A stretch of 64,000 nt of DNA from a virus (lineage: Duplodnaviria > Heunggongvirae > Uroviricota > Caudoviricetes): positions 11,201-75,200 of IMG/VR virus record IMGVR_UViG_3300037504_000227; one strand, written 5' to 3'. Shown in pieces: positions 5,566 through 59,778 of the stretch (the stretch's first letter is position 1; each line of letters opens with the position of its first letter). Made by a program: the position numbers and the translations under genes. The notes under the pieces are model-generated. The model was given only the letters and a program-made list of their open reading frames with translations, made no database searches and was not told the DNA's origin.

Positions 5566-5600
5566 CTTTAAGGTGGATTCTGGCAGAATTGTGGTATAAT
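5566..5600 (+). promoter_or_regulatory. phage promoter, conserved motif CTTTAAGGT-N16-GTGGTATAAT (extended -10)
   Basis: one of at least 6 near-identical 35-nt sites in this window. Confidence 0.55.
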
Positions 5601-5634
5601 TGAGACAAGAAAATCTAGTCAACAGGAGGCAGCA

Positions 5635-5967
5635 ATGGATCAAGCAATCGAGCAACTGATTCAATTCGTTGAACAAGCGTCCCCTATGGTGTGGGATTCG
5701 CTTGTTCGTCAAGTCTATGTATCCGCATTCCTGAATCTCTTCTGGGGCATCGTGGCAGTCATTCTGACCATTGTGGGATTCGTCTACGGGCAGAAATTCT
5801 ACAAGCGGTACGAGGAAGAGGGTAGTTGGTCACCCTATGATATATGTGCTATAGGATGCTATGTGGGCGCTGGGTTCTCTGTCTTCGTTGCAGCAATTTG
5901 TCTGTCTGAGGCTTTCGTCAGGTTCGCCAACCCGATGTACTACGCTATTCAGCTCATTGTTGGCTAA
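5635..5967 (+). CDS. small membrane protein (2-3 TM helices)
   Basis: hydrophobic stretches; AGGAGG RBS. Confidence 0.45.
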   Translation: MDQAIEQLIQFVEQASPMVWDSLVRQVYVSAFLNLFWGIVAVILTIVGFVYGQKFYKRYEEEGSWSPYDICAIGCYVGAGFSVFVAAICLSEAFVRFANPMYYAIQLIVG

Positions 5968-5969
5968 CC

Positions 5970-6383
5970 ATGCAAATCGAAAGCGCAGAAAACCAAAACT
6001 GTTTGGCGCACGGGCTAAGCATCATGCGTGCTGCACTAGGATACACCGAGCCTGCTCCAGACTATCACAACATGGAGAAATCACCACGTGGCGCGCTGGA
6101 AAATGTGGGTAAATGGTTCCCTGACCATGAAGTAATCGTAATGTGCGGCGAAGACCAAGCAGACGAGGCAAACACTCAAGACAATGTTAAGTATGCTGGC
6201 ACCTGGTTTGACTACACAAAAGACTGGAACAACTATATCATAGGATTCAGCTACTACATTGGAGAGAAGAACTCTCCTTCCCACTTCGTTATAGGATACC
6301 CAATATTCTATGGCGACATGAAAGCGTCTGTGTGCGTGTGTGTTAAGTTTAAGGAGGTGCAGGATGTACGAGTTGATCATTGA
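5970..6383 (+). CDS. hypothetical protein
   Basis: ORF only. Confidence 0.4.
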   Translation: MQIESAENQNCLAHGLSIMRAALGYTEPAPDYHNMEKSPRGALENVGKWFPDHEVIVMCGEDQADEANTQDNVKYAGTWFDYTKDWNNYIIGFSYYIGEKNSPSHFVIGYPIFYGDMKASVCVCVKFKEVQDVRVDH

Positions 6384-6807
6384 AGATCGAGGCAAGGAAG
6401 AATCACTTGGAGAATACCAAATACACCCAGAGCCAGAGCGTGGCGACGAAGTGGTAATCGACGGGAAAAGCTACACGCTTGCCCGTCGAAGATGCACCGC
6501 TGATGAAGTCGCTTGGATTTGTCATCCCTTGCGAGAGGGCGTTGTGAAGGCAGGTGTTGACGCTGCTCGCAGGATTGTTGAGAAAAACGTAGATAGCGTA
6601 GAGTTCTTCCAAGAGCGCCCATATACCATCACCAAAGTCACAGCCTATATCAACGGCGCAGAATACTCTGCTATCGGAATTTCGAAAGTTCAGTATCCTG
6701 ACCGCTGGAACCGAGAGCTTGGCATCAAGATCGCAACAGGCAGAGCGGTTAAGAAGATCGCTCGCGCCATTGCCAGCGGAGAGCAACTGAACGAGTCGCT
6801 ATCTTAG
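6364..6807 (+). CDS. hypothetical protein
   Basis: AAGGAGG RBS then ATG at 6364. Confidence 0.4.
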   Translation: MYELIIEDRGKEESLGEYQIHPEPERGDEVVIDGKSYTLARRRCTADEVAWICHPLREGVVKAGVDAARRIVEKNVDSVEFFQERPYTITKVTAYINGAEYSAIGISKVQYPDRWNRELGIKIATGRAVKKIARAIASGEQLNESLS

Positions 6808-6828
6808 ACACCTTTAAGCTATACCTCC

Positions 6829-6857
6829 TTGACTTTCTCCCCTCTTCATGGTAAGAT
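6829..6857 (+). promoter_or_regulatory. sigma70-like promoter (TTGACT-17-TAAGAT)
   Basis: predicted TSS ~6865, exactly at the 5' end of the first tRNA-like element. Confidence 0.5.
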
Positions 6858-6866
6858 GTGTCTGAA

Positions 6867-6988
6867 GTGGTCGTGGTGTAATGGGAGCACGCGAAAAGCC
6901 CGTCTTTCACCAATTGCCTGCAAGGGCCGACGAGGGACGGTTATCCTATTCGGAAGGCGAGGATCGGGTTCGAATCCCGACGACCACT
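6867..6988 (+). ncRNA. tRNA-like ncRNA, candidate Y RNA (YrlA-like) copy 1
   Basis: 7-bp acceptor pairing GTGGTCG/CGACCAC, D-arm GTGT-AATGGGA-GCAC, T-arm TCGGG-TTCGAAT-CCCGA; ~70-nt insertion where a 17-nt anticodon arm would be; 300 nt upstream of a Ro60/TROVE gene. Confidence 0.5.
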
Positions 6989-7058
6989 TTTTGGGCCGAA
7001 GAGCCATCGTTATCCTATATAGATGAAGCTGATGGCTCGCTCACTTGCCCATAACAGC

Positions 7059-7178
7059 GTGGCTGTAGCTTAATTGGAAAAGCACTTACCCTCTTCTTCA
7101 GCAACTTACCTTTTGGGTCGATTGAGGAAGATTACCGCTCATAACGGAGTGTTCTGGGTTCGAGTCCCAGCAGCCACG
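7059..7178 (+). ncRNA. tRNA-like ncRNA, candidate Y RNA (YrlA-like) copy 2
   Basis: acceptor GTGGCTG/CAGCCAC, D-arm GCTT-AATTGGA-AAGC, T-arm CTGGG-TTCGAGT-CCCAG; ~70-nt insertion in anticodon position. Confidence 0.5.
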
Positions 7179-7286
7179 GTTCGTGTACGGGTCGCCGCTT
7201 GACGCTTATCTTTCGCCAGTAGCATTGGTGTTTGAAAGGCACCAGAAGCACCCGCGTCGGCAATTTTATCTGTACAGGAGGATAAT

Positions 7287-8906
7287 ATGCAGGAATACCA
7301 CAAGCATTTCTCGACCAAGAAAACCCCGCAATCTCAGCCAATCCCAGGAACCAATCAGCAGCAGAACAGCGCTGGTGGATTTGCTTGGAAGGTTGACGAC
7401 TGGGCACGCCTTGACCGCTTCCTGATCTTGGGATCAGAGGGTGGCACTTACTACGTCAACGAGCGTGAGCTGACCATAAGAAACGCAAATGCTGTTATGC
7501 GTTGCATCAAGAACGACGGCAAGCGTGCAGTCGAACACATTGCAGAAATCAGCGAGCAGGGCAGAGCGCCCAAAAACGATCCTGCTCTGTTTGCCCTTGC
7601 AATGGCGGCCAGCGCAGATGATCAAGAAACCCGCGTGGCGGCACTTGATGCACTTCCTCGTGTGGCTCGCATTCCGACGCACCTGTTTCACTTCCTGGAA
7701 TACTGCAAGGCATTTCGGGGATGGGGACGCGGACTGCGTGAGGCTGTGGCAAGCTGGTACAACGACAGAGACCCAGGACGACTAGCCTATCACGTTGTAA
7801 AATACCAAAGCCGCGATGGATGGAGTAATCGTGATGCTCTTAGACTGTCTCACCCAACTCCTACAACGCCACAGCACGACAAGATTTATGGATGGGTGAC
7901 GCAAGGACACTCAGTTGACATCCCTCTGATCTCAGCATTCGAGGAAGCAAAAACTGCTGACGAGAAAAGAACAGTCGAGCTAATTCAAGAACACCGTCTT
8001 ACTAGAGAGATGATCAACACCAAACACCTAAACAGCGCTGCTGTGTGGGAGGCACTACTTGAGAATATGCCTCTGCATGCTATGGTGCGCAACTTGGGCA
8101 AGATGACAGATGTTGGACTAATCAAGCCAATGAGCAACGCCGTTACGACAGTGGCTAGCAAGCTATCAGACAAAGAGTATATCCACAAAAGCAGAATGCA
8201 CCCTCTCAAGTTGCTTGTCGCCTTGAAGGTGTATGAGAGTGGTGGTGGATACAGAGGAAGCCTGAGCTGGAATCCAGTGACACAGGTTGTCGATGCACTA
8301 GACAACGCTTTCTATCTGGCGTTTGATAATGCTAAGGTGACTGGCAAGAGAAGGATGCTGGCCTTGGACGTGTCAGGCTCTATGGCATCTGGCGAGATTG
8401 CCGGGATGCCAAACATCACGCCTAGAGTGGCAAGCGCCGCATTGGCAATGGTAACACTTCAAACAGAACCCAGCGTAACGACGACAATCTTCTCGTCCGG
8501 CGGCACGAACTTCAAACAAACAGGGCGCGGGGGGTGGCTGGGCGCGAACGGGATTTCAACCTTCTCCCTGTCGTCAAAGCGGCGACTTGATGATGTTATC
8601 CGAGCTGTATCAGGGCTTCCGTTTGGTGGCACTGATTGTGCCCTGCCAATGATCTATGCTCTTGAGAATGATCTAGAGATTGATTCGTTTGAGGTATACA
8701 CAGACTCCGAGACATGGGCAGGAGATATCCATCCCGTACAGGCACTTGATAAATACCGCAACAAAACTGGAATCCCTGCAAAGCTTGTTGTAATTGGGAT
8801 GACTAGCAATGGATTCTCAATCGCAGACCCAAACGACCCGGGAATGTTGGATGTAGTCGGATTTGACACCGCCACTCCGAATGTAATCTCTCAATTCCTC
8901 CTGTAG
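7287..8906 (+). CDS. rsr: Ro60-like TROVE-domain protein with C-terminal vWA/MIDAS domain (Rsr-like)
   Basis: TROVE-like N-terminal region, long helical repeat region, DxSxS MIDAS (LDVSGSM) plus GGTDCALP as in Ro60/Rsr; AGGAGG RBS. Confidence 0.75.
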   Translation: MQEYHKHFSTKKTPQSQPIPGTNQQQNSAGGFAWKVDDWARLDRFLILGSEGGTYYVNERELTIRNANAVMRCIKNDGKRAVEHIAEISEQGRAPKNDPALFALAMAASADDQETRVAALDALPRVARIPTHLFHFLEYCKAFRGWGRGLREAVASWYNDRDPGRLAYHVVKYQSRDGWSNRDALRLSHPTPTTPQHDKIYGWVTQGHSVDIPLISAFEEAKTADEKRTVELIQEHRLTREMINTKHLNSAAVWEALLENMPLHAMVRNLGKMTDVGLIKPMSNAVTTVASKLSDKEYIHKSRMHPLKLLVALKVYESGGGYRGSLSWNPVTQVVDALDNAFYLAFDNAKVTGKRRMLALDVSGSMASGEIAGMPNITPRVASAALAMVTLQTEPSVTTTIFSSGGTNFKQTGRGGWLGANGISTFSLSSKRRLDDVIRAVSGLPFGGTDCALPMIYALENDLEIDSFEVYTDSETWAGDIHPVQALDKYRNKTGIPAKLVVIGMTSNGFSIADPNDPGMLDVVGFDTATPNVISQFLL

Positions 8907-8926
8907 TATTCGCACCTCCTTTCGCA

Positions 8927-8970
8927 GAAGGGCAATCGCTCGCACAGGGTTGCCCTTCTTGCGTTATCTT
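8927..8970 (+). terminator. intrinsic terminator-like hairpin after rsr
   Basis: GAAGGGCAA/TTGCCCTTC 9-bp stem followed by TTGCGTTATCTTT. Confidence 0.4.
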
Positions 8971-9002
8971 TAAGGTGTAATCCAGCAATTTCGTGGTATA
9001 AT
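8968..9002 (+). promoter_or_regulatory. phage promoter CTTTAAGGT-N16-GTGGTATAAT
   Basis: motif family member. Confidence 0.55.
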
Positions 9003-9035
9003 GGAGGCAGGATTAACTTTAACCTAGGAGGAGTT

Positions 9036-9347
9036 ATGAGATCACATAAAACAGAGACACATAAGAAGATTGTCACGAAAACAACATCGACTACAATCAC
9101 ATGTGACATATGTGAAGCGTCAATAACCAAACATGGCAAGCACACAGGAATAAATGGCACAAACTGGGCAATGTACGACTTTGACTTCAGCACAACCATT
9201 CTGAAAATAGAGATCGGAAACGCCTATCCGGAAGAGACGTTTGGAGAAAGATACGAGATTGATATTTGTCCAGACTGCTTCGAGGAGAAGTTGATTCCTT
9301 GGCTTAGGTCACTTGGTGTAGAGCGTGAATGGGAGGAGTTTGGATAA
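9036..9347 (+). CDS. hypothetical protein
   Basis: AGGAGG RBS. Confidence 0.45.
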   Translation: MRSHKTETHKKIVTKTTSTTITCDICEASITKHGKHTGINGTNWAMYDFDFSTTILKIEIGNAYPEETFGERYEIDICPDCFEEKLIPWLRSLGVEREWEEFG

Positions 9348-9361
9348 GCAAGTTGGATTAA

Positions 9362-9396
9362 CTTTAAGGTCGGGGTTAGTCACTTTGTGGTATAAT
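9362..9396 (+). promoter_or_regulatory. phage promoter CTTTAAGGT-N16-GTGGTATAAT
   Basis: motif family member. Confidence 0.55.
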
Positions 9397-9445
9397 AGGG
9401 ACAGTGATGAGAGCAAAATCGTTTAGTAAGATTAAGGAGGACTAA

Positions 9446-9694
9446 ATGGAGAAAGTAGAAGAATTCTTCGCTGGGATTTTCAGCATCATCTTTGGTGTAA
9501 ACTGCGGGTGTATCGTCCTGATCGGAATCTTCAACCTAGCTCTCGGGGGGTGGTCTGTAAATTACCTGATCCACTTCTTCACCAACGATAAGATTCCCTT
9601 CCTGGCCGCAGCGCTGATTGGCTTGTTCGCTGGGGAATTGTCTATCCCTGGCGCGATTATCGTGGCGATTCTTAGAATGTTTGGAGTAGTTTAA
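9446..9694 (+). CDS. small membrane protein (holin-like topology)
   Basis: two hydrophobic helices; AAGGAGG RBS. Confidence 0.4.
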   Translation: MEKVEEFFAGIFSIIFGVNCGCIVLIGIFNLALGGWSVNYLIHFFTNDKIPFLAAALIGLFAGELSIPGAIIVAILRMFGVV

Positions 9695-9704
9695 AGGAGA
9701 ACAT

Positions 9705-10058
9705 ATGAACACTAACGTATTGGTTTTGACGGGGCGTCTCGGTCGAGATCCTGAGCTTCGGTACACTGGAGAAGGAACAGCAATCTGCAACTTCTCAATC
9801 GCAGTAAATCGTTATGGCGACAAGCCAGCGATGTGGGTTAAGGTAGGCGCGTGGGGTAAGCTTGGCGAACGATGCAATCAGTATCTCCGCAAGGGGAGCC
9901 TGGTCACTGCGTCTGGACGCCTTGAGCCTTCCGGGGCCTGGATCAAGGACGAAGAGGCGCGATCCAGTAACGAGATGACCGCCCTTAATGTTGAGTTCCT
10001 GGCTGACTGGGGCGACAACACCGAGGATGTTCCTGTCGAGGAAGAGATCCCCTTCTAG
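9705..10058 (+). CDS. ssb: single-stranded DNA-binding protein
   Basis: OB-fold N-terminus (VLTGRLGRDPELRYTGEGTAICNFSIAVN) and acidic C-terminal tail EEEIPF. Confidence 0.8.
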   Translation: MNTNVLVLTGRLGRDPELRYTGEGTAICNFSIAVNRYGDKPAMWVKVGAWGKLGERCNQYLRKGSLVTASGRLEPSGAWIKDEEARSSNEMTALNVEFLADWGDNTEDVPVEEEIPF

Positions 10059-10282
10059 TGAAGTGTCAAAATGGATTTGTTCGGACTAGACCTGTGGCGT
10101 GGAAGTATATCCCGCCGCAGGAAGGGGATCAGTATTGGGTGATTAACGGGCGTCTAATGACGGTGTGTTTGTTCTGCGAGGCGTCCGTTAATTGCCCTCC
10201 CTTAAGCTTGGAAGAATTGAGAAAGGAGGTCGAGAGCGATGCATATTCACACAAAAGCAAGAGAAGGCAAGCAATTAATTGA
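10058..10282 (+). CDS. hypothetical protein
   Basis: ORF. Confidence 0.35.
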   Translation: MKCQNGFVRTRPVAWKYIPPQEGDQYWVINGRLMTVCLFCEASVNCPPLSLEELRKEVESDAYSHKSKRRQAIN

Positions 10283-10502
10283 CGAAGTTCTAGAGGATGC
10301 CAAAAGTCTACAGATTGCACTGACAGATCTTCTTAGAGCCTCGCCAACCATCAATCACCCTGGAGGGAAAATCAGACACGTTTTGGTCACATACGAAGAC
10401 GAAAGCACACAAATGATCTTTGGGGATGTAGTCGAGAATGCTGTATATGAGGCAGACAGACGACTAAACAGTTTGTTTCACAAATACTGGAGGACGCCAT
10501 GA
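10239..10502 (+). CDS. hypothetical protein
   Basis: GAAAGGAGG RBS. Confidence 0.4.
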   Translation: MHIHTKAREGKQLIDEVLEDAKSLQIALTDLLRASPTINHPGGKIRHVLVTYEDESTQMIFGDVVENAVYEADRRLNSLFHKYWRTP

Positions 10503-10681
10503 GATTTCTTAAGACAGAGGAGCGCCACGCCACGATGCCCGAAGACAGAATCAAGCCCAAGTCGAACGATCAACTGGCATTGATGACCGATACGAGCCTG
10601 TTGTGAGGGTCAAGTCATGAAACACTACAAGTTCTTAACTGCTGACAACAAAGGCCCATTCTCCGGCATTGAAGGTGGACC

Positions 10682-10978
10682 ATGAACATTCCTGAAGTGG
10701 CTGACAAGCACGCAACAGAATACATCCTTGACCATACGATGTTTCGCTCAGATGGCAAGGCACACCGCGCATTAGTGAAAGCATTTGCGCGTATCATCAG
10801 AAAAACTCTACAGGAAGCCTGCAAGGCCCAATGCCCTCATTGCGCCGATGGAATCCCAGCCTACACTCTCCCAAAGTCTCCCCTCTACTTCCATAACAAG
10901 GAGCGTCAATCCCACTCAGATTGTCTCAGGGAAGTGTGTGAAGCCAGCGGGATAAGGAGGATGATGGATGGGACGTGA
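10682..10978 (+). CDS. hypothetical protein
   Basis: ORF. Confidence 0.35.
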   Translation: MNIPEVADKHATEYILDHTMFRSDGKAHRALVKAFARIIRKTLQEACKAQCPHCADGIPAYTLPKSPLYFHNKERQSHSDCLREVCEASGIRRMMDGT

Positions 10979-11709: not shown

Positions 11710-11718
11710 GAGAAGAAA

Positions 11719-12399: not shown

Positions 12400-12427
12400 A
12401 ACTTTAAGCTTCATGGACGTGAAAGGT

Positions 12428-12456
12428 TTGCGCAGGTTGCGGATGTGTGGTACAAT
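12428..12456 (+). promoter_or_regulatory. promoter TTGCGC-17-TACAAT with extended TGTGG
   Basis: precedes ~160-nt structured leader. Confidence 0.4.
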
Positions 12457-31354: not shown

Positions 31355-31389
31355 CTTTAAGGTCACTTTTTTGACTTTTGTGGTATAAT
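31355..31389 (+). promoter_or_regulatory. phage promoter CTTTAAGGT-N16-GTGGTATAAT
   Basis: motif family member; divergent from tail block. Confidence 0.55.
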
Positions 31390-51208: not shown

Positions 51209-51524
51209 CTTTGCACTCCATCACTGCGTGGATTCTGTCTAGTTCTTTCTGCAATTCGTTGACCATCATCTTCGTCGCAGCAAACTCCTCGACACATCCC
51301 AGCACAGTGCTTAGATCAGTCTCTCTGACCCTGTATTCGAGCCTGTCTCTAGCCTCCCATATTGTTACGCCCTCCACAGCCTGGGCAAGCGAATTGAGCA
51401 CAGCGATTTCGTCGCCAGTCATCTCAACAATACAGTTTCCTTTAGGGGTTCTGCCAATCTCTTTCACTTTTGTCTCCTTTTGCAAATACAATTGCATTAT
51501 ACGACACGCTCGCAACATTGTCAA
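51201..51524 (-). CDS. hypothetical protein
   Basis: ORF; first gene of minus-strand island. Confidence 0.35.
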   Translation of the reverse strand: MTMLRACRIMQLYLQKETKVKEIGRTPKGNCIVEMTGDEIAVLNSLAQAVEGVTIWEARDRLEYRVRETDLSTVLGCVEEFAATKMMVNELQKELDRIHAVMECKDG

Positions 51525-51534
51525 GTCGGGATAG

Positions 51535-51569
51535 TTTTAAGGTTGACTTTCGGCCTTTTGTGGTATAAT
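51535..51569 (+). promoter_or_regulatory. phage promoter TTTTAAGGT-N16-GTGGTATAAT driving a near-leaderless mRNA
   Basis: TATAATAGGGTCACGATG: ATG 8 nt after -10. Confidence 0.55.
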
Positions 51570-51577
51570 AGGGTCAC

Positions 51578-51812
51578 GATGGCCTATGAAAACTATGACA
51601 ATATTCCAACACGAATAGAGAAGTTCATGCGGCAGTTCCCGCCAGGGGTAATAATCCCCAAGCCAGTGCTATATACTGCTGTGTGGGGCGGGGAGTACAA
51701 TAGATTGTGCGACAATACTATTCGTGCAAACATAAGCTATTTGAGGAAGAGCGGGTTTTCAATCAGAGTTAGAAGAGGAAAGGGGTATGTGTGGGAGGAA
51801 ACAGATGGATAA
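51578..51812 (+). CDS. hypothetical protein (78 aa, basic C-terminus)
   Basis: ATG directly after promoter. Confidence 0.4.
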
Positions 51813-53292: not shown

Positions 53293-54688
53293 TTACACTA
53301 TTATCTGCGACGATGTGATTTCTGCATTGCAACAATACGACGATGGTGTATTTCGCGGATGCTTCTGTGATCCGCCATATGGCCTGACAGACATTACCAA
53401 AGATGACATCGTTGATGTTTTGACACACTGGCTTTTGGGAGATGCGTACAACGGGACAGGCGGCGGGTTTATGGGGAGAAGTTGGGACTCGTTTGTTCCT
53501 GGTCCAAACTATTGGAGTGAAGTGTATCGTGTGCTTAAACCTGGGGGCAACTTGCTTGCGTTCGGTGGAGCGCGGACGTATGACTTGCTAACGTTAGCGC
53601 TTAGATTGGCTGGGTTTGAGATTCGGGATACTGTGTATTGGGTGCATGGGCAGGGAATGGCGCTTGGATTAAATATTGGCAAGGCTGTTGACAGTCACCT
53701 TGGGGCAGAGAGAGAAGTGGTCGGGAAGGGGCACAGTGGTGCATCATATAACCTTGCTGGGGGCAACGACAGACCGTGGCATGAAGATCGCAAAAACGAC
53801 AATGGACGCATCGAGTACGATATTACAACCCCGGCAACAGAGCAAGCCAAGATATGGGACGGATATAACACACGACTAAAACCAGCAGTGGAGCCAATTG
53901 TGTGGGCAATGAAGCCAAGAGACGGAACGTTTGCTGAGAATGCGCTGAAACATGGTGTTGCAGGAATCAACGTGGATGGGTGCAGGGTGCCGACAGATGG
54001 TAGGCCGAAACGCGAAGTGGCACAGGCAAACAAAGACGTGGATTATTCGGGAACATCCTTAGCTGGAAGACTGGACGGTTCTCTGCAAACAAACAAAGCT
54101 GTTGGGCAAACTGATCAGGGGAGATTCCCTGCCAATCTAATTCACGACGGGAGCGATGAGGTAACTCAATTCTTCCCAAGAACACCAGGACAGCAAGGCA
54201 GAGTTGGTCCAGAGATGGGCAAGAAGGACAGCGTAAACGTCTATGGCGATTATGGCGAACGTCCAGAGTTCACTCCCAGGGGCGATCAAGGCTCTGCTGC
54301 TCGATACTTTTACTGTGCCAAGGCATCTGGGTCAGAGAAAAATGCGGGATGTGAAGATCTCTATTGGCGCAAAGACAAATCGTCATCAACTGGATTCGTG
54401 CGCATAACTAGACGAGAGTGGCAAGATCTTCCCAATAATCGTCGCGCAAGAGGCAACATCCATCCAACAGTTAAACCATTGGCCCTAACAGAGTATCTAG
54501 CCAAACTAATTAAACCGCCACAGGGAGGAAGATTGTTGGTTCCGTTCTCTGGAAGCGGGTCTGAGGGCAAAGGCGGCATTGCCGCTGGATGGGATAGAGT
54601 GACATTGATCGACGTAGAGCAAGCGTATTGTGACATCGCAGATGCAAGATTGGGAATGGCAATTCAGATGAAGTTGAACTTTCTGTAA
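53282..54688 (+). CDS. DNA N6-adenine (or N4-cytosine) methyltransferase
   Basis: motif IV CFCDPPYGL and SAM-binding region. Confidence 0.7.
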   Translation: MPDNYTIICDDVISALQQYDDGVFRGCFCDPPYGLTDITKDDIVDVLTHWLLGDAYNGTGGGFMGRSWDSFVPGPNYWSEVYRVLKPGGNLLAFGGARTYDLLTLALRLAGFEIRDTVYWVHGQGMALGLNIGKAVDSHLGAEREVVGKGHSGASYNLAGGNDRPWHEDRKNDNGRIEYDITTPATEQAKIWDGYNTRLKPAVEPIVWAMKPRDGTFAENALKHGVAGINVDGCRVPTDGRPKREVAQANKDVDYSGTSLAGRLDGSLQTNKAVGQTDQGRFPANLIHDGSDEVTQFFPRTPGQQGRVGPEMGKKDSVNVYGDYGERPEFTPRGDQGSAARYFYCAKASGSEKNAGCEDLYWRKDKSSSTGFVRITRREWQDLPNNRRARGNIHPTVKPLALTEYLAKLIKPPQGGRLLVPFSGSGSEGKGGIAAGWDRVTLIDVEQAYCDIADARLGMAIQMKLNFL

Positions 54689-54696
54689 GGAGGAAC

Positions 54697-54909
54697 ATGA
54701 ACATATTCAAGTGGCTCAAAAGTGGACGAGCTCGATACAAGAAGGACGCACAAGGAAACCCTATCAAGTTCAAGATGCCTGCCCCCAAGACCCCCAAAGT
54801 CAGGGGCAAGGCCAAGCAGAAGCCGAAAGACTGGAAGAAGAAGAGAAAGAAGAAGCGTAAGATGGCTAAAGAATCCCGGCGCAAGAATCGCTGGGCAAAT
54901 CAGGGGTGA
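54697..54909 (+). CDS. highly basic Lys/Arg-rich small protein (possible DNA-binding/condensing protein)
   Basis: KPKDWKKKRKKKRKMAKESRRKNR; AGGAGG RBS. Confidence 0.45.
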   Translation: MNIFKWLKSGRARYKKDAQGNPIKFKMPAPKTPKVRGKAKQKPKDWKKKRKKKRKMAKESRRKNRWANQG

Positions 54910-55060
54910 TACATGTTGATGATATGCTACGCAATCGCGTGTAGAATCGCCAAGAAAAAGGTCGATGAAGTGTTTCTGTTTACCCTCTTGATGTTTGATG
55001 CCATTGTATTTGCGATGTTGGTTATTCCAGTGACAGCTGCGCTTCTGCTAGGAGGATAAT

Positions 55061-55201
55061 ATGCTACAATCAGAGAATGGTCAAGGGCTTGTCGAGTACG
55101 TGCTGATTTGCGTACTGGTTGCTATCGTGGTGCTTTCTGCTGTGGCGCTGTTTGGACCCGTGATTGAGGAGGCGCTGAACAAGATAGCAGACAAGCTATA
55201 A
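55061..55201 (+). CDS. Flp/Fap-pilin-like small protein (46 aa)
   Basis: MLQSENGQGLVEYVLICVLVAIVVLSAVALFG; AGGAGG RBS. Confidence 0.45.
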   Translation: MLQSENGQGLVEYVLICVLVAIVVLSAVALFGPVIEEALNKIADKL

Positions 55202-55210
55202 CACAAAAAG

Positions 55211-55240
55211 CCACAGCGCAATGCTGTGGCTAAATGTGTT
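55211..55240. terminator. bidirectional intrinsic terminator CCACAGC-gcaat-GCTGTGG
   Basis: between convergent genes; on minus strand followed by TTTTTGTGT. Confidence 0.55.
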
Positions 55241-55250
55241 CCAATGTTAT

Positions 55251-55718
55251 CTATGCAGTTGACGTGGCTGACAACTCGACGTACTTTAGAGATCCACCTG
55301 CTGTGGTCACTGCAAGGAACCACTTGTTGGATTCGTCTGTTGCGCGCACGACTCTCAGTGAACCTGTCTCGCCCGTGCCTGGTGAAGCACTTGTATATCC
55401 AAGGTTTGTCCATCCCTGAACATCTAGTGTGTTGTAGCTCGATGCGTCTTGCTCAAGCTTCAAGGCAGGTCGCGTGTCCGAAGCGTGATCTTGCTTAATC
55501 ACAACAACGGCGGCGTCGGTGCTTGTTGCAGTCAGGTTGCGCGTGACATTAAACGACGGATTCGATCCATACAGATCAATGTCACCTGTCTGGATGTTGA
55601 AGTCCAAGTCAACATATTCATCTGAGGTTCCAACCTCAAAGTCCGCCCCAGATGAATAGGGCTTCATCTTGAGATGTCCTCTTATGAAAGTTGTTCTCCA
55701 AAACTTATTAACTGGCAT
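55251..55718 (-). CDS. hypothetical protein (possible head-tail joining component)
   Basis: ORF downstream of capsid genes. Confidence 0.35.
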   Translation of the reverse strand: MPVNKFWRTTFIRGHLKMKPYSSGADFEVGTSDEYVDLDFNIQTGDIDLYGSNPSFNVTRNLTATSTDAAVVVIKQDHASDTRPALKLEQDASSYNTLDVQGWTNLGYTSASPGTGETGSLRVVRATDESNKWFLAVTTAGGSLKYVELSATSTA

Positions 55719-55788
55719 ACTATCCTCCTAATGTGTGGGTACAGACCCCCACTGGTCATATGCTGGGGTACAGTCCCCCCAGCCAGGA

Positions 55789-56085
55789 CTATCTATTTCC
55801 GTGAGTGTTATGTCCGTGAACGTCCAGCAGAGAAGCGTGAGTAAACTTCGCCCCACACTCCCCACACTCAAACAGTTCATCACTATCTGGCACAGGGACA
55901 ACGTGCTTGTTCCGAAGCAAGCCTTCGTCATTCTTGAACCCCTTTAGCTCAAAGACTTGCCCGCGGTCAAACTTGTCCCCGCCATAGGAAAACCCCTCAC
56001 GGGCTACAGCTACTAGCATATTTTGTCTCCTTTGCTCACTTGACATTTCCAAGATTTGTGCTATACTTATTCTAACCAAAATCAC
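55789..56085 (-). CDS. protein with classical C2H2 zinc finger
   Basis: FECGECGAKFTHASLLDVHGHNTH fits C-x2-C-x3-F-x5-L-x2-H-x3-H. Confidence 0.45.
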   Translation of the reverse strand: MILVRISIAQILEMSSEQRRQNMLVAVAREGFSYGGDKFDRGQVFELKGFKNDEGLLRNKHVVPVPDSDELFECGECGAKFTHASLLDVHGHNTHGNR

Positions 56086-56103
56086 ACGATAGGAGAATCA
56101 AGT

Positions 56104-56964
56104 ATGGGAAGATCCCCCAAGTATGATGCTCAAGAAGCGCTGTGTATTTATGAAGAGGAAGGTACGTATGCCGCCGTTGCCAGAGCGTTTGGATGTAGTC
56201 AATCGTCTGCTACACAAGCTGTTCGTCGCGCCCAAGGTGTGTGCTTGTTTTGTGGAGACGAAACCGTTGAAGGTCGCTCGTTTTGCGAGAAGCATTTGAA
56301 GGTTCAACGTGAGAATTCCCGCAAACTATATCATCGTAGAAAGTTAAACGGCATCTGCCCCAACTGTGGCAAGAAATCCAACAGAGATGGTACGCTTTGC
56401 CGAGAGTGTGCCGACAAAAACACTCAACACACAATGAAGAGCGGCAACAAGGCGCGCGACCAAGGACTATGCTTCAATTGCCGGTCAAGCCCACTGTCAG
56501 AAAGATCTGACTGGCTGTGTGAGACATGTCTAGATAAAACAAATAGGAGAACCAAGGCTCGTCGCGAAGAATTGTTGGATGCAGGAATCTGCATTCGTTG
56601 CAGAGAAGCTCCGTCTACAGACGAAAACAAATCCTATTGTCAAGAGTGTAGGGAGATAGTTAACGAAGCCAAGCGTCTCAAAAACAGCAACTCTGAGTGG
56701 GCAATGAATCGTCGTCGAGCGATGAAAGAAAACGGTCATAGATGTCAGATATGTGGAGAGAAAGCCAAGGTGGGGCATCACATTGATGAAAGTGGAAACA
56801 CAGACAATCCAAATGATGCGATTGACAACATTGCTGTTTTGTGCTGGCCTTGCCACGGCAGACTTACAGCAGCTCTTGAATTGTTAAAGTTAGATAATAT
56901 TGAGTATATCTTGAGGCTGTTGGCGGAGTCTCCGCACAACAACCTGCAAGATTATCTCAATTAA
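56104..56964 (+). CDS. HNH endonuclease with multiple zinc ribbons
   Basis: CQICGEKAKVGHHIDESGNTDNPNDAIDNIAVLCWPCHGR; seven CxxC pairs upstream. Confidence 0.7.
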   Translation: MGRSPKYDAQEALCIYEEEGTYAAVARAFGCSQSSATQAVRRAQGVCLFCGDETVEGRSFCEKHLKVQRENSRKLYHRRKLNGICPNCGKKSNRDGTLCRECADKNTQHTMKSGNKARDQGLCFNCRSSPLSERSDWLCETCLDKTNRRTKARREELLDAGICIRCREAPSTDENKSYCQECREIVNEAKRLKNSNSEWAMNRRRAMKENGHRCQICGEKAKVGHHIDESGNTDNPNDAIDNIAVLCWPCHGRLTAALELLKLDNIEYILRLLAESPHNNLQDYLN

Positions 56965-57932
56965 TCGGCGATTCCTGAGAAGAAAGCCCCTGCATCGGCA
57001 ACCAAGGACTTCTGATCGTAGTACGACCGAACCTCAACCACGTCGCCCATGCGTTCCTCGTCTCGATACTTGCGCATCCACTGCGGTCCGCCGCCTGCAT
57101 TTGAGCTGGTGCGCCAAACGAAGGTGTACCCTGCGGCTGGCTCCATCAACATCGGGTTGTCAGGAACGTACAGCAACAGAGCGTCGTCGTCCCAGTTGGC
57201 ACTTAGTGTCACAGAAGCCTCTGCAAGCCCTTCCTCGTCAGCAGTGTAAACGCTGGTGCCGACTAGAACCTTGCTTAGACCGAACATTGAAGCCAGTAGA
57301 TCCTGGGTTGCAATGCCGCGCTCAGTGTACTTAATACGGTCAAGCACGTCTGGGTGATCCAGAAGCTTGTCGTAGGTCAGGTCGCCAAGGACCAAGCAGT
57401 TTGGGTCACGCCCGATTAGGCGTCGAACGGTACGCTTGTAGGTGCGAACATCCACGATTGGATCGCTGGTACCGAAGTCGCTCCACTTGTTGACCGTGCT
57501 CCCACCTGTGATATCCGTGGTCCAAACACTGGTGCTCCAGAAGTCGGACACGAATGATCGCTCCCTGCGAAGCATTAGGCGATCAGTCACCCACTTGGTA
57601 GCATCGCGGTCGATATTGAATGGGTCGTCCTGGTTTGCGCGCTGGTCGTCAGAGATGAAGTAGCGCAGACCGAAGCGGTCGCAGTAGTATGTGGTGGTGG
57701 TCGTCACGTCGAATCCTGCGAACGGCGCAGTGCCGCCCTCAGAGATTCGGTCCGCCATATCACGGAACCAGTGTGACTTATCGTACTCAGGAACGATGTC
57801 GGTTTGCTTATCCACCATCACAGTTGGGAAAATCTCATCTGCGATGTAACGTGGATTCGAATATGCGACGGAAATATCCGTCAGCATCTTATTTACATGT
57901 AGATCACTTGCTGATGGCATGAAAACTGGCAT
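56961..57932 (-). CDS. major capsid protein (lambda gpE-like)
   Basis: 323 aa; order protease/scaffold - decoration - capsid mirrors lambda C-Nu3-D-E. Confidence 0.6.
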   Translation of the reverse strand: MPVFMPSASDLHVNKMLTDISVAYSNPRYIADEIFPTVMVDKQTDIVPEYDKSHWFRDMADRISEGGTAPFAGFDVTTTTTYYCDRFGLRYFISDDQRANQDDPFNIDRDATKWVTDRLMLRRERSFVSDFWSTSVWTTDITGGSTVNKWSDFGTSDPIVDVRTYKRTVRRLIGRDPNCLVLGDLTYDKLLDHPDVLDRIKYTERGIATQDLLASMFGLSKVLVGTSVYTADEEGLAEASVTLSANWDDDALLLYVPDNPMLMEPAAGYTFVWRTSSNAGGGPQWMRKYRDEERMGDVVEVRSYYDQKSLVADAGAFFSGIAD

Positions 57933-57946
57933 TAGTTAATCCTCCT

Positions 57947-58345
57947 CTAGCTAGCCAAGTAAGCTGGGCCGGTAAGGACGATGCTGGCGATGTCGCCTGC
58001 AGATCCACAGCCAGTCTCAACAACGCCTACCATGTAAACCCCAGTGGTCGTACCAGGGGTAACAACAGCCGCCTGTCCATCTGCTGAAGTGCTCACAACG
58101 TTGCCTGCAGTCAGAGACTCGTTAGCCGAAATCTTAGAGTGCCCCTTGATCCTCACCCGTGCTTCCTGTGAAGTCTCAGGCTTGTTCTGCAGAACGCCGA
58201 GCACTACATCTGTGGTCCCATCGCATACGTCAACCTGACCATCCCCGCTCAACTCTACGAAGTAATACTGTTTCGAGCTAAGATCATTCTCTGCCTTCAG
58301 AGTGATGTCCTGCCCGTCGTATTGTCGTGCTCCCTTTACAGCCAT
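57947..58345 (-). CDS. head decoration protein-like
   Basis: 132-aa Gly/Val/Thr-rich beta protein between scaffold and capsid genes. Confidence 0.45.
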   Translation of the reverse strand: MAVKGARQYDGQDITLKAENDLSSKQYYFVELSGDGQVDVCDGTTDVVLGVLQNKPETSQEARVRIKGHSKISANESLTAGNVVSTSADGQAAVVTPGTTTGVYMVGVVETGCGSAGDIASIVLTGPAYLAS

Positions 58346-58349
58346 TTAT

Positions 58350-59663
58350 CTATTCCTCCCTGTCCGCCTTGATGCTCTTAACGGTCTTCTTGTCGTACTC
58401 AGCGTACAGACCAGGGTTCTGGCTTAGAACCTTCTCAAGAGCGGTCACTTCATCTTCCCCAAACTTCTCCACGCGCTCGCTAACCAGGGCATCAATCTTG
58501 CTTTCCACACCCTCGTTAACCCCACTGTGTCCGCGCTCACCGAAAAGCTCACTTTCGTCAATCTGATTGCTCAGGGCAACCAATGTGGTGTGAATCTTCT
58601 CGTATGCCTCTTCGTCCTCGTCGTGCAGCTTCATAAGCGCAGGTGCCACATCATCAGCCTCAAGATTCTTAATCTCTTTTAGCCCATCTGTGAACTCAAC
58701 CAGTCGCTTCTCGCGCTCGATCTCGGACAGTTGGGTTAGCGCCTCTTTCTTCTCTGAACGCTCAGCCTCTAGAGCATCATTAGCCTCCTGAAGCTGCTCG
58801 GACAGATTAGTGATTTGAGCGCTCTGCTCATTCAGTTTGCCTTCCAACTCTGCAAACTTTTCTTCCAACTCACTCATATCGTCCTCCATATCCTCCGTGT
58901 CATTATCCATTCCGAACTCATCTTCTGGCAGGCTGAACGTGTCATTGAACCAGCCCTTGAGCTTTTCAAATACAGACTTCGCAATTTGCTCTTCGTCTAC
59001 CTCAGCCTCTTCAATGACCCAGCCATCCTCGTCTGAGAAAAATGCTGTGTCTCTACCAAGCCGAGGTCGTGGCGTAAACGCAATGCCCATTGCAACATTG
59101 TTGTACATATTGCCGTCGTTGGCCTGATAGTCGCGGAACCAAATCTCAGGAGATGTGTAACGATACCCCTTATCCTTAATCTCTTCGTCTTTCCCATCTC
59201 GGAAACTTGGACGCCACTGAACCTCTGTATCAGTCGCCCTCAGATCAGCGATGTTGCCATAAATGCCTGCTGAATCTCGGTGCAATACGTTGATTGGCAG
59301 GTCGTAGCCAGGAACATCGTGCTCTTTGAAGTTGGCTACCATCTCTTGGGCATCGCTAGGCGTAAGCTCGTGACTCTTGCCGTGATGATAAACTTCGCGT
59401 CCGATGGGGAAGTAGAAATACCATCCATCTTCGCGTTCGGAAAAAGGGACAATAAACTTAAGATCGTCACTCATCTTCTTCACCCATTTACCGTCCTTCT
59501 TGACATAGTTCTTCTTGATCACTCCCCAGGCAAGCGTAAAGGCATCCGATTCATCTTTCCCGTCCCGCAAGGCTTTGTTGACAACAGCCAAAAATTGTTT
59601 CTGCGCTGACTCGGGCAGACCCTTTACTCTGTCTGGGAGTTCACTTACACTATCATATGGCAT
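58350..59663 (-). CDS. putative head maturation protease/scaffolding protein with ChaB-like N-terminus
   Basis: N-terminal PYDSVSELPDRVKGLPESAQKQF; C-terminal acidic coiled coil. Confidence 0.45.
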   Translation of the reverse strand: MPYDSVSELPDRVKGLPESAQKQFLAVVNKALRDGKDESDAFTLAWGVIKKNYVKKDGKWVKKMSDDLKFIVPFSEREDGWYFYFPIGREVYHHGKSHELTPSDAQEMVANFKEHDVPGYDLPINVLHRDSAGIYGNIADLRATDTEVQWRPSFRDGKDEEIKDKGYRYTSPEIWFRDYQANDGNMYNNVAMGIAFTPRPRLGRDTAFFSDEDGWVIEEAEVDEEQIAKSVFEKLKGWFNDTFSLPEDEFGMDNDTEDMEDDMSELEEKFAELEGKLNEQSAQITNLSEQLQEANDALEAERSEKKEALTQLSEIEREKRLVEFTDGLKEIKNLEADDVAPALMKLHDEDEEAYEKIHTTLVALSNQIDESELFGERGHSGVNEGVESKIDALVSERVEKFGEDEVTALEKVLSQNPGLYAEYDKKTVKSIKADREE

Positions 59664-59743
59664 GCAGTCCCTCCGACAATTCTATCATCTGTGTCTATTT
59701 TATTGCGTGATGGAAGGTGGTACAAGGTTGCAATCTGAGATAG

Positions 59744-59778
59744 CTTTAAGTTCGGTTTTGGACGCTTTGTGGTATAAT
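59744..59778 (+). promoter_or_regulatory. phage promoter CTTTAAGTT-N16-GTGGTATAAT driving a near-leaderless mRNA
   Basis: TATAATAGGGTCACGATG: ATG 9 nt after -10. Confidence 0.55.

What the first reader, a model, noticed from the sequence alone, without database searches (positions are those of the whole stretch)
5566..59778. Conserved 35-nt phage promoter motif CTTTAAGGT-N16-GTGGTATAAT at six or more sites
Sites at 5566, 8968, 9362, 31355, 51535 and 59744 share an invariant upstream 9-mer, exact 16-nt spacing, and a GTGG-extended perfect -10. The 9-mer sits where a -35 would be but does not resemble TTGACA. This suggests extended -10 promoters plus a phage- or host-specific upstream element (UP-like or factor binding site). 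CTTTAAG-like words also recur near other gene ends (6815, 12397, 53096).
Basis: seen in the sequence. Interest (0 to 1): 0.6.

Follow-up and report, generated by a model that had tools for sequence, protein, structure and literature searches.

The report
Phage promoter class lacking a -35 box
Six near-identical promoter sequences drive the non-structural genes of a novel, roughly 110-kb phage; they pair a perfect extended -10 box with a conserved 9-base element where the usual -35 box would be, a known type of design with a new sequence.

Summary
CTTTAAGGT-N16-GTGGTATAAT occurs four times exactly and twice with one mismatch. All six copies are on the + strand, in intergenic gaps, and point at + strand genes; shuffles give none.

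Only the two blocks are conserved (93% and 100% pairwise identity). The flanks are at random level (25-29%), so this reflects selection, not recent duplication.

The window is part of a novel phage with three promoter classes:
- Class I: canonical TTGACA-16/17-TAtAaT, on both strands.
- Class II: the finding, + strand only, upstream of non-structural genes.
- Class III: AACCTTGnnn-N17-TAAAAT, - strand only, upstream of structural operons.

The polymerase that transcribes this phage therefore reads TTGACA, and the 9-mer (about -41 to -33) is a class-specific substitute for the -35 box. Two variant copies (CTTTAAGCT) lie 11 and 20 nt further from their -10 boxes, roughly in helical phase.

The same bipartite motif is conserved upstream of orthologous genes in two Anaerolineae-like bacterial loci. 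It also resembles the Campylobacter RpoD consensus (-35 TTTAAGTnTT, T-rich -16, TATAAT) in sequence and geometry.

A 77-aa OmpR/PhoB-type winged-helix protein is encoded leaderless from one of the sites. It is a candidate regulator, but nothing links it to the 9-mer.

Verdict: a new member of a known kind; moderate interest.

The parts
5566..5600 (+). Class II promoter 1: CTTTAAGGT (5566-5574), N16, GTGGTATAAT (5591-5600). The downstream gene starts at ATG 5635, preceded by AGGAGG.
8968..9002 (+). Class II promoter 2, exact motif. A GC hairpin (GGGCAA...TTGCCC) lies just upstream. The downstream gene starts at ATG 9036, preceded by AGGAGG.
9362..9396 (+). Class II promoter 3, exact motif. An ATG 10 nt after TATAAT opens a 12-codon mini-ORF that stops right before ATG 9446. 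The SSB gene (9705) lies downstream.
31355..31389 (+). Class II promoter 4, exact motif. It stands back to back with a class III promoter. A leader of about 150 nt precedes the SPFH gene (31542), followed by RNA ligase and exonuclease genes.
51535..51569 (+). Class II promoter 5: TTTTAAGGT variant, the only site that also has a TTGACT (15-nt spacer). It stands back to back with a perfect TTGACA-17-TATAAT promoter on the - strand. ATG 51579 lies 9 nt after TATAAT (leaderless).
59744..59778 (+). Class II promoter 6: CTTTAAGTT variant, back to back with the class III promoter of the capsid operon. ATG 59788 lies 9 nt after TATAAT (leaderless PAPS-reductase-like gene).
6812..6857 (+). Variant promoter: CTTTAAGCT (6812-6820), then TTGACT (6829-6834), 17 nt, TAAGAT (6852-6857). 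The 9-mer starts 40 nt before the -10 hexamer, 11 nt further than in the six main sites. It would drive two tRNA-like RNAs and the Ro60 gene. The first tRNA-like fold starts at 6864, 7 nt after the -10 hexamer.
12402..12456 (+). Variant promoter: CTTTAAGCT (12402-12410) starts 49 nt before the TACAAT of TGTGGTACAAT (12446-12456), 20 nt further than in the six main sites. It lies upstream of the T5orf172, replication-initiator and DnaB genes.
51579..51812 (+). Gene for a 77-aa stand-alone OmpR/PhoB-type winged-helix DNA-binding protein. It is the leaderless first gene of promoter 5 and a candidate regulator. No evidence links it to the 9-mer.
51496..51524 (-). Class I (canonical) promoter, TTGACA-17-TATAAT, divergent from promoter 5. 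It shows that the RNA polymerase transcribing this phage reads a normal -35 box. Other class I sites: + 1995-2023, + 18160-18188, + 56040-56067, + 61901-61929 (tRNA cluster), - 38113-38086, - 21568-21541.
59697..59729 (-). Class III promoter, AACCTTGTAC-N17-TAAAAT, upstream of the ChaB/capsid operon. Two further exact copies of AACCTTG-N20-TAAAAT lie on the - strand at 31339-31307 (HNH/tail operon) and 43414-43382.

Best explanation
The six sites are strong promoters for the phage's rightward, non-structural transcription units: small unknown genes, SSB and replication genes, SPFH/RNA-ligase/exonuclease genes, the winged-helix/methyltransferase module, and the PAPS-reductase-like gene.

Proposed mechanism:
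- The host primary-sigma RNA polymerase binds the perfect extended -10 block (TtTGTGG-TATAAT). Such a block does not need a -35 hexamer.
- The 9-mer C-TTTAAG-G-T, at about -41 to -33, takes the place of the -35 box as a class-specific recruitment element on the polymerase-facing side of the helix.
- T-rich clusters repeat every 10-11 nt between the 9-mer and the -10 box.
- Because the same bipartite motif is conserved at bacterial chromosomal promoters, I infer that a host component reads the 9-mer. This could be the polymerase itself (alpha C-terminal domain or sigma region 4, as at Campylobacter-type promoters) or a host factor.
- The phage uses this element to set one gene class apart from its canonical (class I) and structural-gene (class III) promoters.

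Shown: the motif, its statistics, its placement, the three classes, and the cellular occurrences.
For: Statistics and conservation:
- Six sites against none in the shuffles.
- Only the two blocks are conserved; the flanks are at random level.

Placement:
- All six sites are intergenic and co-oriented with + strand genes.

Same -10 block, different -35 region:
- Promoters with a canonical TTGACA at 16-17 nt carry the same TGTGG-TAtAaT block, so the same sigma probably reads the -10 box.
- The class II sites themselves have no -35 hexamer.

Start site position:
- Start codons lie 9 nt after TATAAT at 51579 and 59788, and independent gene calls use them.
- A tRNA-like fold starts 7 nt after the -10 hexamer of the 6812 variant.

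Helical phasing:
- The 9-mer starts 29 nt (six sites), 40 nt and 49 nt before the -10 hexamer.
- In loci L004 and L021 a second TTTTTAAGG lies 22 nt upstream of the first.

Cellular occurrences:
- The exact motif lies upstream of orthologous genes in L004 (an Anaerolineae MAG) and L021, and upstream of a homologous sRNA-like sequence in L012, L014, L019, L022 and L026. The spacers differ in each case.
- L004 encodes ordinary chromosomal genes.

Resemblance to a known type:
- The C. jejuni RpoD consensus has -35 TTTAAGTnTT, -16 TTTTTTTG and -10 TATAAT. In a published construct TTTAAG starts 29 nt before TATAAT, against 28 nt here (PMC3824568).
- Epsilonproteobacterial promoters show a periodic A/T pattern plus an extended -10 box instead of a -35 box (PMC3656092).
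- T clusters occur here at offsets 1-3, 12-15 and 21-24.
Against: - There are no start site or expression data.
- The host is unknown. The Chloroflexota assignment rests only on the best named homologues of the Ro60 protein and on locus L004.
- The genome and metagenome scans used a fixed 16-nt spacing, so the identical geometry of the cellular hits is partly an artefact of how they were found.
- The 9 genome hits are close to the roughly 4 expected by chance (my calculation: 2 x 596 Gb / 4^19).
- Capsid relatives at 51-73% identity, and one phage-like contig (L048) found through its Ro60 gene, use canonical TTGACA promoters and lack the 9-mer. The element is therefore not general in this phage group or its hosts.
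- Near-invariance of 9 bases is more typical of a sequence-specific protein than of an UP-like or DNA-shape element.
Confidence: 0.45

Rival explanations
1. The 9-mer is the binding site of a phage-encoded activator: the 77-aa stand-alone OmpR/PhoB-type winged-helix protein (51579-51812). Bound at about -37, it would contact sigma region 4 or alpha and recruit RNA polymerase to promoters without a -35 box. That would make it a middle-gene switch, analogous to PhoB at pho boxes or MotA at T4 middle promoters. Lacking a receiver domain, it would be constitutively active. Its own promoter (51535) has an extra TTGACT that could give basal expression and positive feedback.
For: - Pfam Trans_reg_C match, 23 bits, E = 8e-5. 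JGI names the protein an OmpR family regulator.
- The AlphaFold2 model has pLDDT 81. Most of the best 50 Foldseek hits in PDB are OmpR-family DNA-binding domains, with TM-score up to 0.74 normalised to the query.
- It is the only DNA-binding domain Pfam detected in the ~79 window ORFs scanned.
- Its + strand module is an insertion relative to relatives that lack the 9-mer class.
- It is the leaderless first gene of a class II promoter.
Against: - The same motif occurs at bacterial chromosomal promoters with no such protein nearby.
- The loci of its only two homologues (41-44% identity) show no 9-mer promoters. One of them has a canonical TTGACA-17-TACAAT promoter.
- OmpR-family proteins normally bind tandem repeats, whereas the phage sites have a single 9-mer.
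- The Pfam score is below the curated cut-off.
- Only 64 kb of the ~110-kb genome was inspected.
Confidence: 0.2
2. The 9-mer is an operator for a repressor, either the winged-helix protein or another phage or host protein. These would then be strong, constitutive early promoters with an extended -10 box that are shut off later, or during lysogeny, by a protein occupying the -35 region.
For: - A perfect extended -10 box should be active without any upstream element.
- The window encodes an integrase, so a lysogenic state is possible.
- The site overlaps the -35 region.
- Promoter 5 and a canonical promoter stand back to back, like a genetic switch.
Against: - The register is exact in six promoters, and the displaced copies keep rough helical phase (L004/L021). 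This points to stereospecific cooperation with the polymerase rather than occlusion.
- No dispersed copies exist of the kind seen with mycobacteriophage L5 stoperators.
- The site is asymmetric and single.
Confidence: 0.13
3. The 9-mer is the -35-type element of a second sigma factor, either a host group-2 sigma or a phage-encoded one, that shares the TATAAT specificity for the -10 box.
For: - Two or three promoter classes share a -10 box but differ upstream.
- Both canonical and 9-mer promoters occur in the bacterial or mobile-element locus L024.
Against: - TTTAAG lies 22 nt from TATAAT, too far for sigma region 4 in the usual geometry.
- At site 6812 the 9-mer sits upstream of a complete TTGACT-17-TAAGAT promoter, a position region 4 cannot occupy.
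- No sigma domain was found in the ~79 ORFs scanned.
Confidence: 0.1
4. The repeats are copies of one promoter cassette spread by recombination. The 9-mer would be conserved by descent and have no function of its own.
For: - Sites 51535 and 59744 share the 12 nt after TATAAT and GATAG before the 9-mer.
- Three sites share CAAGTYGG upstream.
Against: - The spacer and distal flanks are at random identity, while the 9-mer is 93% and the -10 block 100% identical.
- The 9-mer is conserved across diverged orthologous bacterial loci.
Confidence: 0.04

Closest known systems
Campylobacter jejuni / Helicobacter pylori RpoD (sigma-70/80) promoters
   Same: - No TTGACA box.
- An extended -10 box, TGnTATAAT, with a T-rich -16 region.
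- A '-35' consensus TTTAAGTnTT whose first six bases equal TTTAAG of the 9-mer. Site 59744 reads TTTAAGTT.
- TTTAAG starts 29 nt before TATAAT in a published construct, against 28 nt here (PMC3824568).
[quoted passage not shown]
   Different: - The same phage also has perfect TTGACA-17-TATAAT promoters, so the element marks a class and is not the general promoter form.
- GC content is 49%, Shine-Dalgarno sequences are strong AGGAGG, and the Ro60 homologues point to Chloroflexota or Deinococcus rather than Campylobacterota.
- The 9-mer is far better conserved than the weak Campylobacter -35 region.
Phage T4 middle promoters (MotA box plus sigma-70 -10 box, sigma appropriation by AsiA/MotA); stated from my own knowledge
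   Same: - A phage temporal-class promoter that keeps the host -10 box and replaces the -35 box with a roughly 9-bp asymmetric element.
- A monomeric phage DNA-binding protein reads that element.
- Canonical early promoters coexist in the same genome.
   Different: - The MotA box is (a/t)(a/t)(a/t)TGCTTtA centred at -30. Here the sequence differs and is centred at about -37.
- No MotA or AsiA homologue was detected in the window.
- The motif also occurs in bacterial chromosomes.
PhoB/OmpR-family activated promoters (pho box replacing the -35 box); stated from my own knowledge
   Same: - The -35 box is replaced by a binding site for a winged-helix activator that contacts sigma region 4.
- The phage encodes an OmpR-type winged-helix protein.
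- L004 and L021 carry two TTTAAGG copies 22 nt apart in direct orientation.
   Different: - The phage sites have a single 9-mer, not tandem half-sites 10-11 bp apart.
- The protein lacks both the receiver domain and the N-terminal beta-sheet.
- No binding evidence exists.
Mycobacteriophage L5 gp71 stoperators; stated from my own knowledge
   Same: An asymmetric short site that overlaps the -35 region of an early promoter and is repeated in one orientation.
   Different: - Stoperators are scattered through transcription units at variable positions.
- Here every excess copy sits at a fixed or helically phased distance from a -10 box, and there are no dispersed copies.

Membership tests
Extended -10 (TGn) sigma-70-type promoter | A TG dinucleotide one base upstream of a -10 hexamer close to TATAAT | tested here: met
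   All six sites read TGG-TATAAT, within (T)GTGGTATAAT.
Extended -10 (TGn) sigma-70-type promoter | No recognisable -35 hexamer at 16-18 nt | tested here: met
   The consensus scanner (at least 4 of 6 matches in each hexamer) does not call 5566, 8968 or 9362. Only 51535 has a TTGACT, with a 15-nt spacer.
Extended -10 (TGn) sigma-70-type promoter | Transcription starts 6-8 nt downstream of the -10 hexamer | not testable with these tools
   Indirect support only: start codons 9 nt after TATAAT at two sites, and a tRNA-like fold beginning 7 nt after the -10 hexamer at the 6812 variant.
Campylobacter/Helicobacter-type RpoD promoter | '-35' region TTTAAGTnTT about 29 nt upstream of TATAAT | tested here: met
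   TTTAAG is invariant in all six sites and starts 28 nt before TATAAT. The published construct has 29 nt. Position 7 is G in five sites and T in one.
Campylobacter/Helicobacter-type RpoD promoter | Periodic A/T (T-tract) signal upstream of the -10 box, and a T-rich -16 region | tested here: inconclusive
   T clusters at offsets 1-3, 12-15 and 21-24, with TTTG before TGG. Only six sequences were available and no significance test was run.
Campylobacter/Helicobacter-type RpoD promoter | It is the general housekeeping promoter form of the host (Campylobacterota), with no TTGACA promoters | tested here: not met
   At least seven canonical TTGACA/TTGACT promoters occur in the same window. The host is not identified. 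Ro60 homologues point to Chloroflexota or Deinococcus.
T4-type middle promoter (MotA/AsiA) | MotA box TGCTTtA centred at -30 | tested here: not met
   The region from -33 to -17 is variable. The conserved element has a different sequence and is centred at about -37.
T4-type middle promoter (MotA/AsiA) | MotA and AsiA homologues encoded by the phage | tested here: not met
   No such Pfam or PHROG match among the ~79 ORFs of the 64-kb window that were scanned. The other ~46 kb of the genome was not seen.
PhoB/OmpR-activated promoter | An OmpR-family winged-helix regulator is present | tested here: met
   The product of 51579-51812: Trans_reg_C match with E = 8e-5, below the curated cut-off; the top Foldseek hits in PDB are mostly OmpR-family DNA-binding domains.
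PhoB/OmpR-activated promoter | Two or more direct-repeat half-sites 10-11 bp apart that overlap the -35 region | tested here: not met
   Each phage site has a single 9-mer. L004 and L021 have a second copy 22 nt upstream.
PhoB/OmpR-activated promoter | The regulator binds the site and activates transcription | not testable with these tools
   This needs EMSA or footprinting and in vitro transcription.
L5-type stoperator system | Many copies of an asymmetric site dispersed within transcription units, at no fixed distance from the -10 boxes | tested here: not met
   There are 16 copies with at most one mismatch on the + strand. Eight are promoter-linked, at 29, 40 or 49 nt. The remaining 8 equal the chance expectation of 7.2 +/- 2.6.

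The most novel reading that the evidence does not exclude
A phage-encoded, receiver-less OmpR/PhoB winged-helix protein acts as a constitutive, MotA-like activator. It would read the 9-mer and redirect host primary-sigma RNA polymerase to a 'middle' promoter class, mimicking a host response regulator whose TTTAAGG sites occur in Chloroflexota-like chromosomes.

Equivalently novel: TTTAAGG at about -37 is a so far undescribed promoter element of an uncultivated bacterial lineage, and could serve as a marker for phage-host assignment.
Probability: 0.2. Interest if true: 0.65.

Novelty: new member of a known kind. Interest (0 to 1): 0.4.

Why it matters
The motif gives a clean, testable map of transcription for a phage with no close cultured or database relatives. 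The map has three promoter classes that separate non-structural from structural genes, several leaderless first genes, and one candidate regulator.

The same bipartite element is conserved at promoters in Anaerolineae-like bacterial contigs. It could therefore be a first handle on promoter architecture in a poorly studied lineage, and a sequence signature for linking phages to such hosts.

If the small winged-helix protein reads the 9-mer, this would be a new route for a phage to take over host RNA polymerase. If the polymerase reads it directly, the Campylobacter-type promoter without a -35 box would extend beyond Campylobacterota.

Tried and rejected
Searches for close relatives:
- Megablast of 5000-12000 against GenBank phages found nothing.
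- tblastn with DnaB and the tape-measure protein found only hits at 28% identity or less.
- Protein-seeded scans of IMG/VR with the capsid protein and DnaB found no relatives.

Motif scans:
- The exact motif gave 0 hits in IMG/VR, 9 in genomes and 17 in metagenomes.
- None of the hit loci shares a protein with the window.
- Several low-GC hits are a chance juxtaposition of a terminator and a promoter (L005, L006, L013, L017).
- A relaxed 17-base pattern in IMG/VR gave 12 single hits. I judge that close to chance, but the size of the collection is not given.

Phage relatives, fetched through capsid homologues and one Ro60 homologue:
- L030-L033, L035 and L048 have canonical promoters and no 9-mer class.
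- A Chloroflexota MAG contig (L050), fetched through another Ro60 homologue, shows no copy of the motif either.
- Phylogenetic footprinting of the phage sites was therefore impossible.

The winged-helix protein:
- Its homologue loci L028 and L029 show no shared motif.

Other tests:
- Rfam found nothing in the motif-bearing metagenome loci and nothing on the + strand leader after site 31355. That leader's fold is not significant (z = -1.4).
- A literature search by sequence returned only primer hits. A search on Chloroflexi promoter motifs returned nothing relevant.
- I considered sigma-B-type (GTTTAA-N12-15-GGGTAT) and sigma-H-type readings and rejected them because the spacing is wrong (20 nt against about 14). 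This rests on my own knowledge.
- The apparent upstream extension CAAGGTTGCA at sites 31355 and 59744 proved to be the -35 region of divergent class III promoters.

Limits:
- Attempts to reach the rest of the 110-kb contig failed.

Full report
**1. The observation**

- The pattern CTTTAAGGT-N16-GTGGTATAAT matches exactly at 5566, 8968, 9362 and 31355.
- With up to three mismatches, only two more sites appear: 51535 (TTTTAAGGT) and 59744 (CTTTAAGTT). All six are on the + strand, and 100 dinucleotide-preserving shuffles gave none.
- GTGGTATAAT occurs on the + strand only at these six places.
- Pairwise identity among the sites:

| Region | Identity |
|---|---|
| 9-mer | 0.93 |
| -10 block | 1.00 |
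| First 12 spacer bases | 0.37 |
| Distal flanks | 0.25-0.29 |

Two blocks are therefore held constant inside otherwise unrelated sequence. That is the signature of selection, not of recent duplication.

Two corrections to the finding:
- The 9-mer is not strictly invariant. Positions 1 and 8 each vary once.
- Of the extra 'CTTTAAG-like words', 6812 and 12402 are real (both read CTTTAAGCT). The one at 53096 is not a match.

**2. What the window is**

- It is part of a novel tailed phage. The window's capsid and Ro60 proteins have 100%-identical counterparts recorded on a JGI contig of 110,716 bp.
- Recognisable genes:
  - FtsK-like ATPase
  - tyrosine integrase
  - Ro60/TROVE protein
  - SSB
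  - replication initiator
  - DnaB
  - tape-measure protein
  - capsid protein
  - ChaB-domain protein
  - DNA methyltransferase
  - PAPS-reductase-like protein
  - SPFH protein
  - RNA ligase
  - a long cluster of sugar-modifying enzymes
  - a tRNA cluster
- ThyX was identified from the gene calls on a Logan contig identical to window 13630-21519.
- GenBank phages hold nothing close.
- + strand blocks carry the non-structural genes; - strand blocks carry the structural and glycosylation genes.
- Each of the six sites lies in an intergenic gap and points at a + strand block.

**3. Three promoter classes**

A search for the extended -10 block with up to two mismatches found further promoters with a canonical -35 hexamer 16-17 nt upstream:
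- + strand: 1995-2023; 18160-18188; 56040-56067; and 61901-61929, which ends 12 nt before the first tRNA.
- - strand: 51524-51496 (a perfect TTGACA-17-TATAAT), 38113-38086 and 21568-21541.

The polymerase that transcribes this phage therefore reads TTGACA. The class II sites lack such a hexamer, and the consensus scanner does not call 5566, 8968 or 9362.

A third class, AACCTTGnnn-N17-TAAAAT, occurs three times exactly, all on the - strand:
- upstream of the HNH/tail operon (31339)
- upstream of gene 42681-43367 (43414)
- upstream of the ChaB/capsid operon (59729)

The closest capsid relative, L030, keeps AACCTTGCCT at its capsid-operon promoter. The sequence CAAGGTTGCA upstream of sites 31355 and 59744 is simply the -35 region of these divergent class III promoters.

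**4. Geometry**

- If transcription starts 7 nt after TATAAT, the 9-mer spans -41 to -33.
- An unbiased search looked for the 9-mer (at most one mismatch) followed within 20-62 nt by TGnTAnnnT. It found eight cases, all on the + strand. The distance from the start of the 9-mer to the -10 hexamer is 29 nt six times, 40 nt once (6812) and 49 nt once (12402).
- The two outliers are displaced by 11 and 20 nt, that is, about one and two helical turns.
- At 6812 the 9-mer lies upstream of a complete TTGACT-17-TAAGAT promoter.
- The 9-mer with at most one mismatch occurs 16 times on the + strand and 8 times on the - strand, against 7.2 +/- 2.6 expected. The excess equals the promoter-linked copies, so there is no dispersed pattern of the stoperator kind.
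- T-rich clusters occur at offsets 1-3, 12-15 and 21-24 from the start of the 9-mer.

**5. Indirect support for the start sites**

- At 51535 and 59744 an ATG lies 9 nt after TATAAT with no Shine-Dalgarno sequence. Independent gene callers start the genes at those ATGs. This implies leaderless mRNAs.
- A relative, L032, likewise has its ATG 10 nt after TATAAT.
- At the 6812 variant, the acceptor stem of a tRNA-like fold begins at 6864, 7 nt after the -10 hexamer.

**6. A candidate phage factor**

- The leaderless gene 51579-51812 encodes a 77-aa protein. Evidence for an OmpR/PhoB-type winged helix:
  - a Trans_reg_C match (E = 8e-5, below the curated cut-off)
  - the JGI name 'OmpR family regulator'
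  - the characteristic recognition-helix and wing pattern in a PDB sequence alignment
  - a confident model (pLDDT 81)
  - most of the best 50 Foldseek hits in PDB are OmpR-family DNA-binding domains
- Pfam saw no other DNA-binding domain in the ~79 ORFs scanned.
- Its + strand module is an insertion relative to capsid relatives that lack the 9-mer class.
- Against a link to the 9-mer:
  - An exhaustive search of 1.8 billion representatives found only two convincing homologues.
  - Their loci show no such promoters.
  - No motif-bearing locus encodes a homologue.

**7. The motif outside the phage**

- Exact-match scans gave 0 hits in IMG/VR, 9 in 596 Gb of genomes and 17 in metagenomes. About 4 genome hits are expected by chance (my calculation).
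- None of the hit loci shares proteins with the window. Several hits are nonetheless informative:
  - L004 (an Anaerolineae MAG) and L021 are syntenic orthologous regions. Both carry the exact motif upstream of the same small gene and a DedA-like gene, with diverged spacers. Both also have a second TTTTTAAGG 22 nt upstream.
  - L012, L019, L014, L022 and L026 (GC 0.54-0.63) carry the motif upstream of a homologous, roughly 110-nt sRNA-like sequence with a terminator.
  - L024 has the motif back to back with a canonical TTGACA promoter.
- The element is therefore used and conserved in bacterial genomes, which argues that a cellular component reads it.
- Caveat: these scans fixed the spacing at 16 nt, so the shared geometry is partly an artefact of how the hits were found.
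- The best named homologues of the phage's Ro60 protein come from Chloroflexota and Caldilineaceae MAGs and from Deinococcus (58-59% identity). This is weak support for a Chloroflexota host.

**8. Comparison with known systems**

- The nearest described architecture is the Campylobacter/Helicobacter RpoD promoter: -35 TTTAAGTnTT, -16 TTTTTTTG, -10 TATAAT. In a published construct TTTAAG starts 29 nt before TATAAT, against 28 nt here (PMC3824568).
- Genome-wide start-site maps of C. jejuni show a periodic A/T pattern plus TGxTATAAT instead of a -35 box (PMC3656092).
- The present sites match that design. However, they coexist with canonical promoters, they are far more strongly conserved, and the phage does not look like a phage of Campylobacterota. 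I therefore report resemblance in how it works, not membership.
- From my own knowledge, T4 middle promoters (MotA box) and PhoB-dependent promoters are functional analogues. Their defining sequence features are not met here. L5-type stoperators are excluded by the distribution of copies.

**9. Verdict**

- I am about 90% confident that these are real promoters.
- They form one temporal or functional class of a three-class system.
- The 9-mer most likely acts as a recruitment element in helical phase with the polymerase, read by host machinery (confidence 0.45).
- Rivals, in order: a phage winged-helix activator, a repressor operator, an alternative sigma factor.
- This is a well-known kind of feature with a new sequence and an unknown reader. 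Interest is moderate.

Noticed in passing
window 31339-31307, 43414-43382, 59729-59697 (all - strand): A third promoter class, AACCTTGnnn-N17-TAAAAT, occurs three times exactly and only on the - strand. The copies lie upstream of the HNH/tail operon, gene 42681-43367 and the ChaB/capsid operon. By my calculation about 0.002 copies are expected by chance. The closest relative, L030, keeps AACCTTGCCT at its capsid-operon promoter.
   Followed up: partly
window 6864-7200 (+) and 7287-8906 (+): A Ro60/TROVE gene is preceded by two tRNA-like structured RNAs. The fold of 6864-7200 shows two cloverleaf-like modules (z = -2.1). Rfam calls 7059-7178 a tRNA with a ~49-nt insertion, and ARAGORN does not find it. 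This looks like a phage-borne Ro plus YrlA-like Y RNA module, driven by the variant promoter at 6812.
   Followed up: partly
window 29855-30180 (-): A group I intron (Rfam RF00028, 81 bits) sits directly after a very short exon that starts at ATG 30130. It apparently splits a structural gene (about 29.47-30.13 kb) just downstream of the HNH endonuclease gene 30141-31220.
   Followed up: partly
window 31222-31288 (-): An int-alpA RNA motif (RF02996, 51.8 bits, E = 4.6e-10) lies in the 5' untranslated region of the HNH endonuclease gene, between the class III promoter and the start codon.
   Followed up: partly
window 51579, 59788, 21535, 9407: Several first genes appear to be leaderless, with an ATG 6-10 nt after the -10 hexamer. 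At 9407 this is a 12-codon mini-ORF whose stop codon abuts ATG 9446. Relative L032 shows the same arrangement (ATG 10 nt after TATAAT).
   Followed up: partly
window 51535-56964: The + strand module (winged-helix gene, small ORFs, DNA methyltransferase 53258-54688) and the HNH gene 56056-56964 interrupt what is one continuous structural operon in the closest relatives L030-L032. L033 keeps an HNH homologue at the same place. The module looks like an inserted one with its own promoters.
   Followed up: partly
window 36181-51208 (-): A ~15-kb cluster of glycosyltransferases, methyltransferases, a DUF268 protein and epimerase-like genes lies inside the - strand structural region. It is partly conserved in relatives; L030 adds a sulfotransferase. 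Its function (virion or DNA glycan modification?) is unknown.
   Followed up: no
window 61941-63013 (+): A cluster of 9 (ARAGORN) to 10 (Rfam) tRNA genes begins 12 nt after a canonical promoter (61901-61929).
   Followed up: no
L012 276-400, L014 (- strand, after the motif), L019, L022, L026: A conserved, roughly 110-nt sRNA-like sequence with a terminator hairpin (caccgaagcggc...gtagctgccgaag...ttcggct-Tn) follows the exact motif in GC-rich bacterial metagenome contigs. It has no Rfam family.
   Followed up: partly
L047 2449 and 10408 (+); L023 849, 294, 63 (-); L003 235, 3388, 4165 (+): Other unrelated phage-like contigs carry their own repeated promoter families that begin with (T/C/G)TTTAAGGT and end in TG(G/A)TATAAT. 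In L047 each is followed by the palindrome TGTATCAAGTTGATACA.
   Followed up: no
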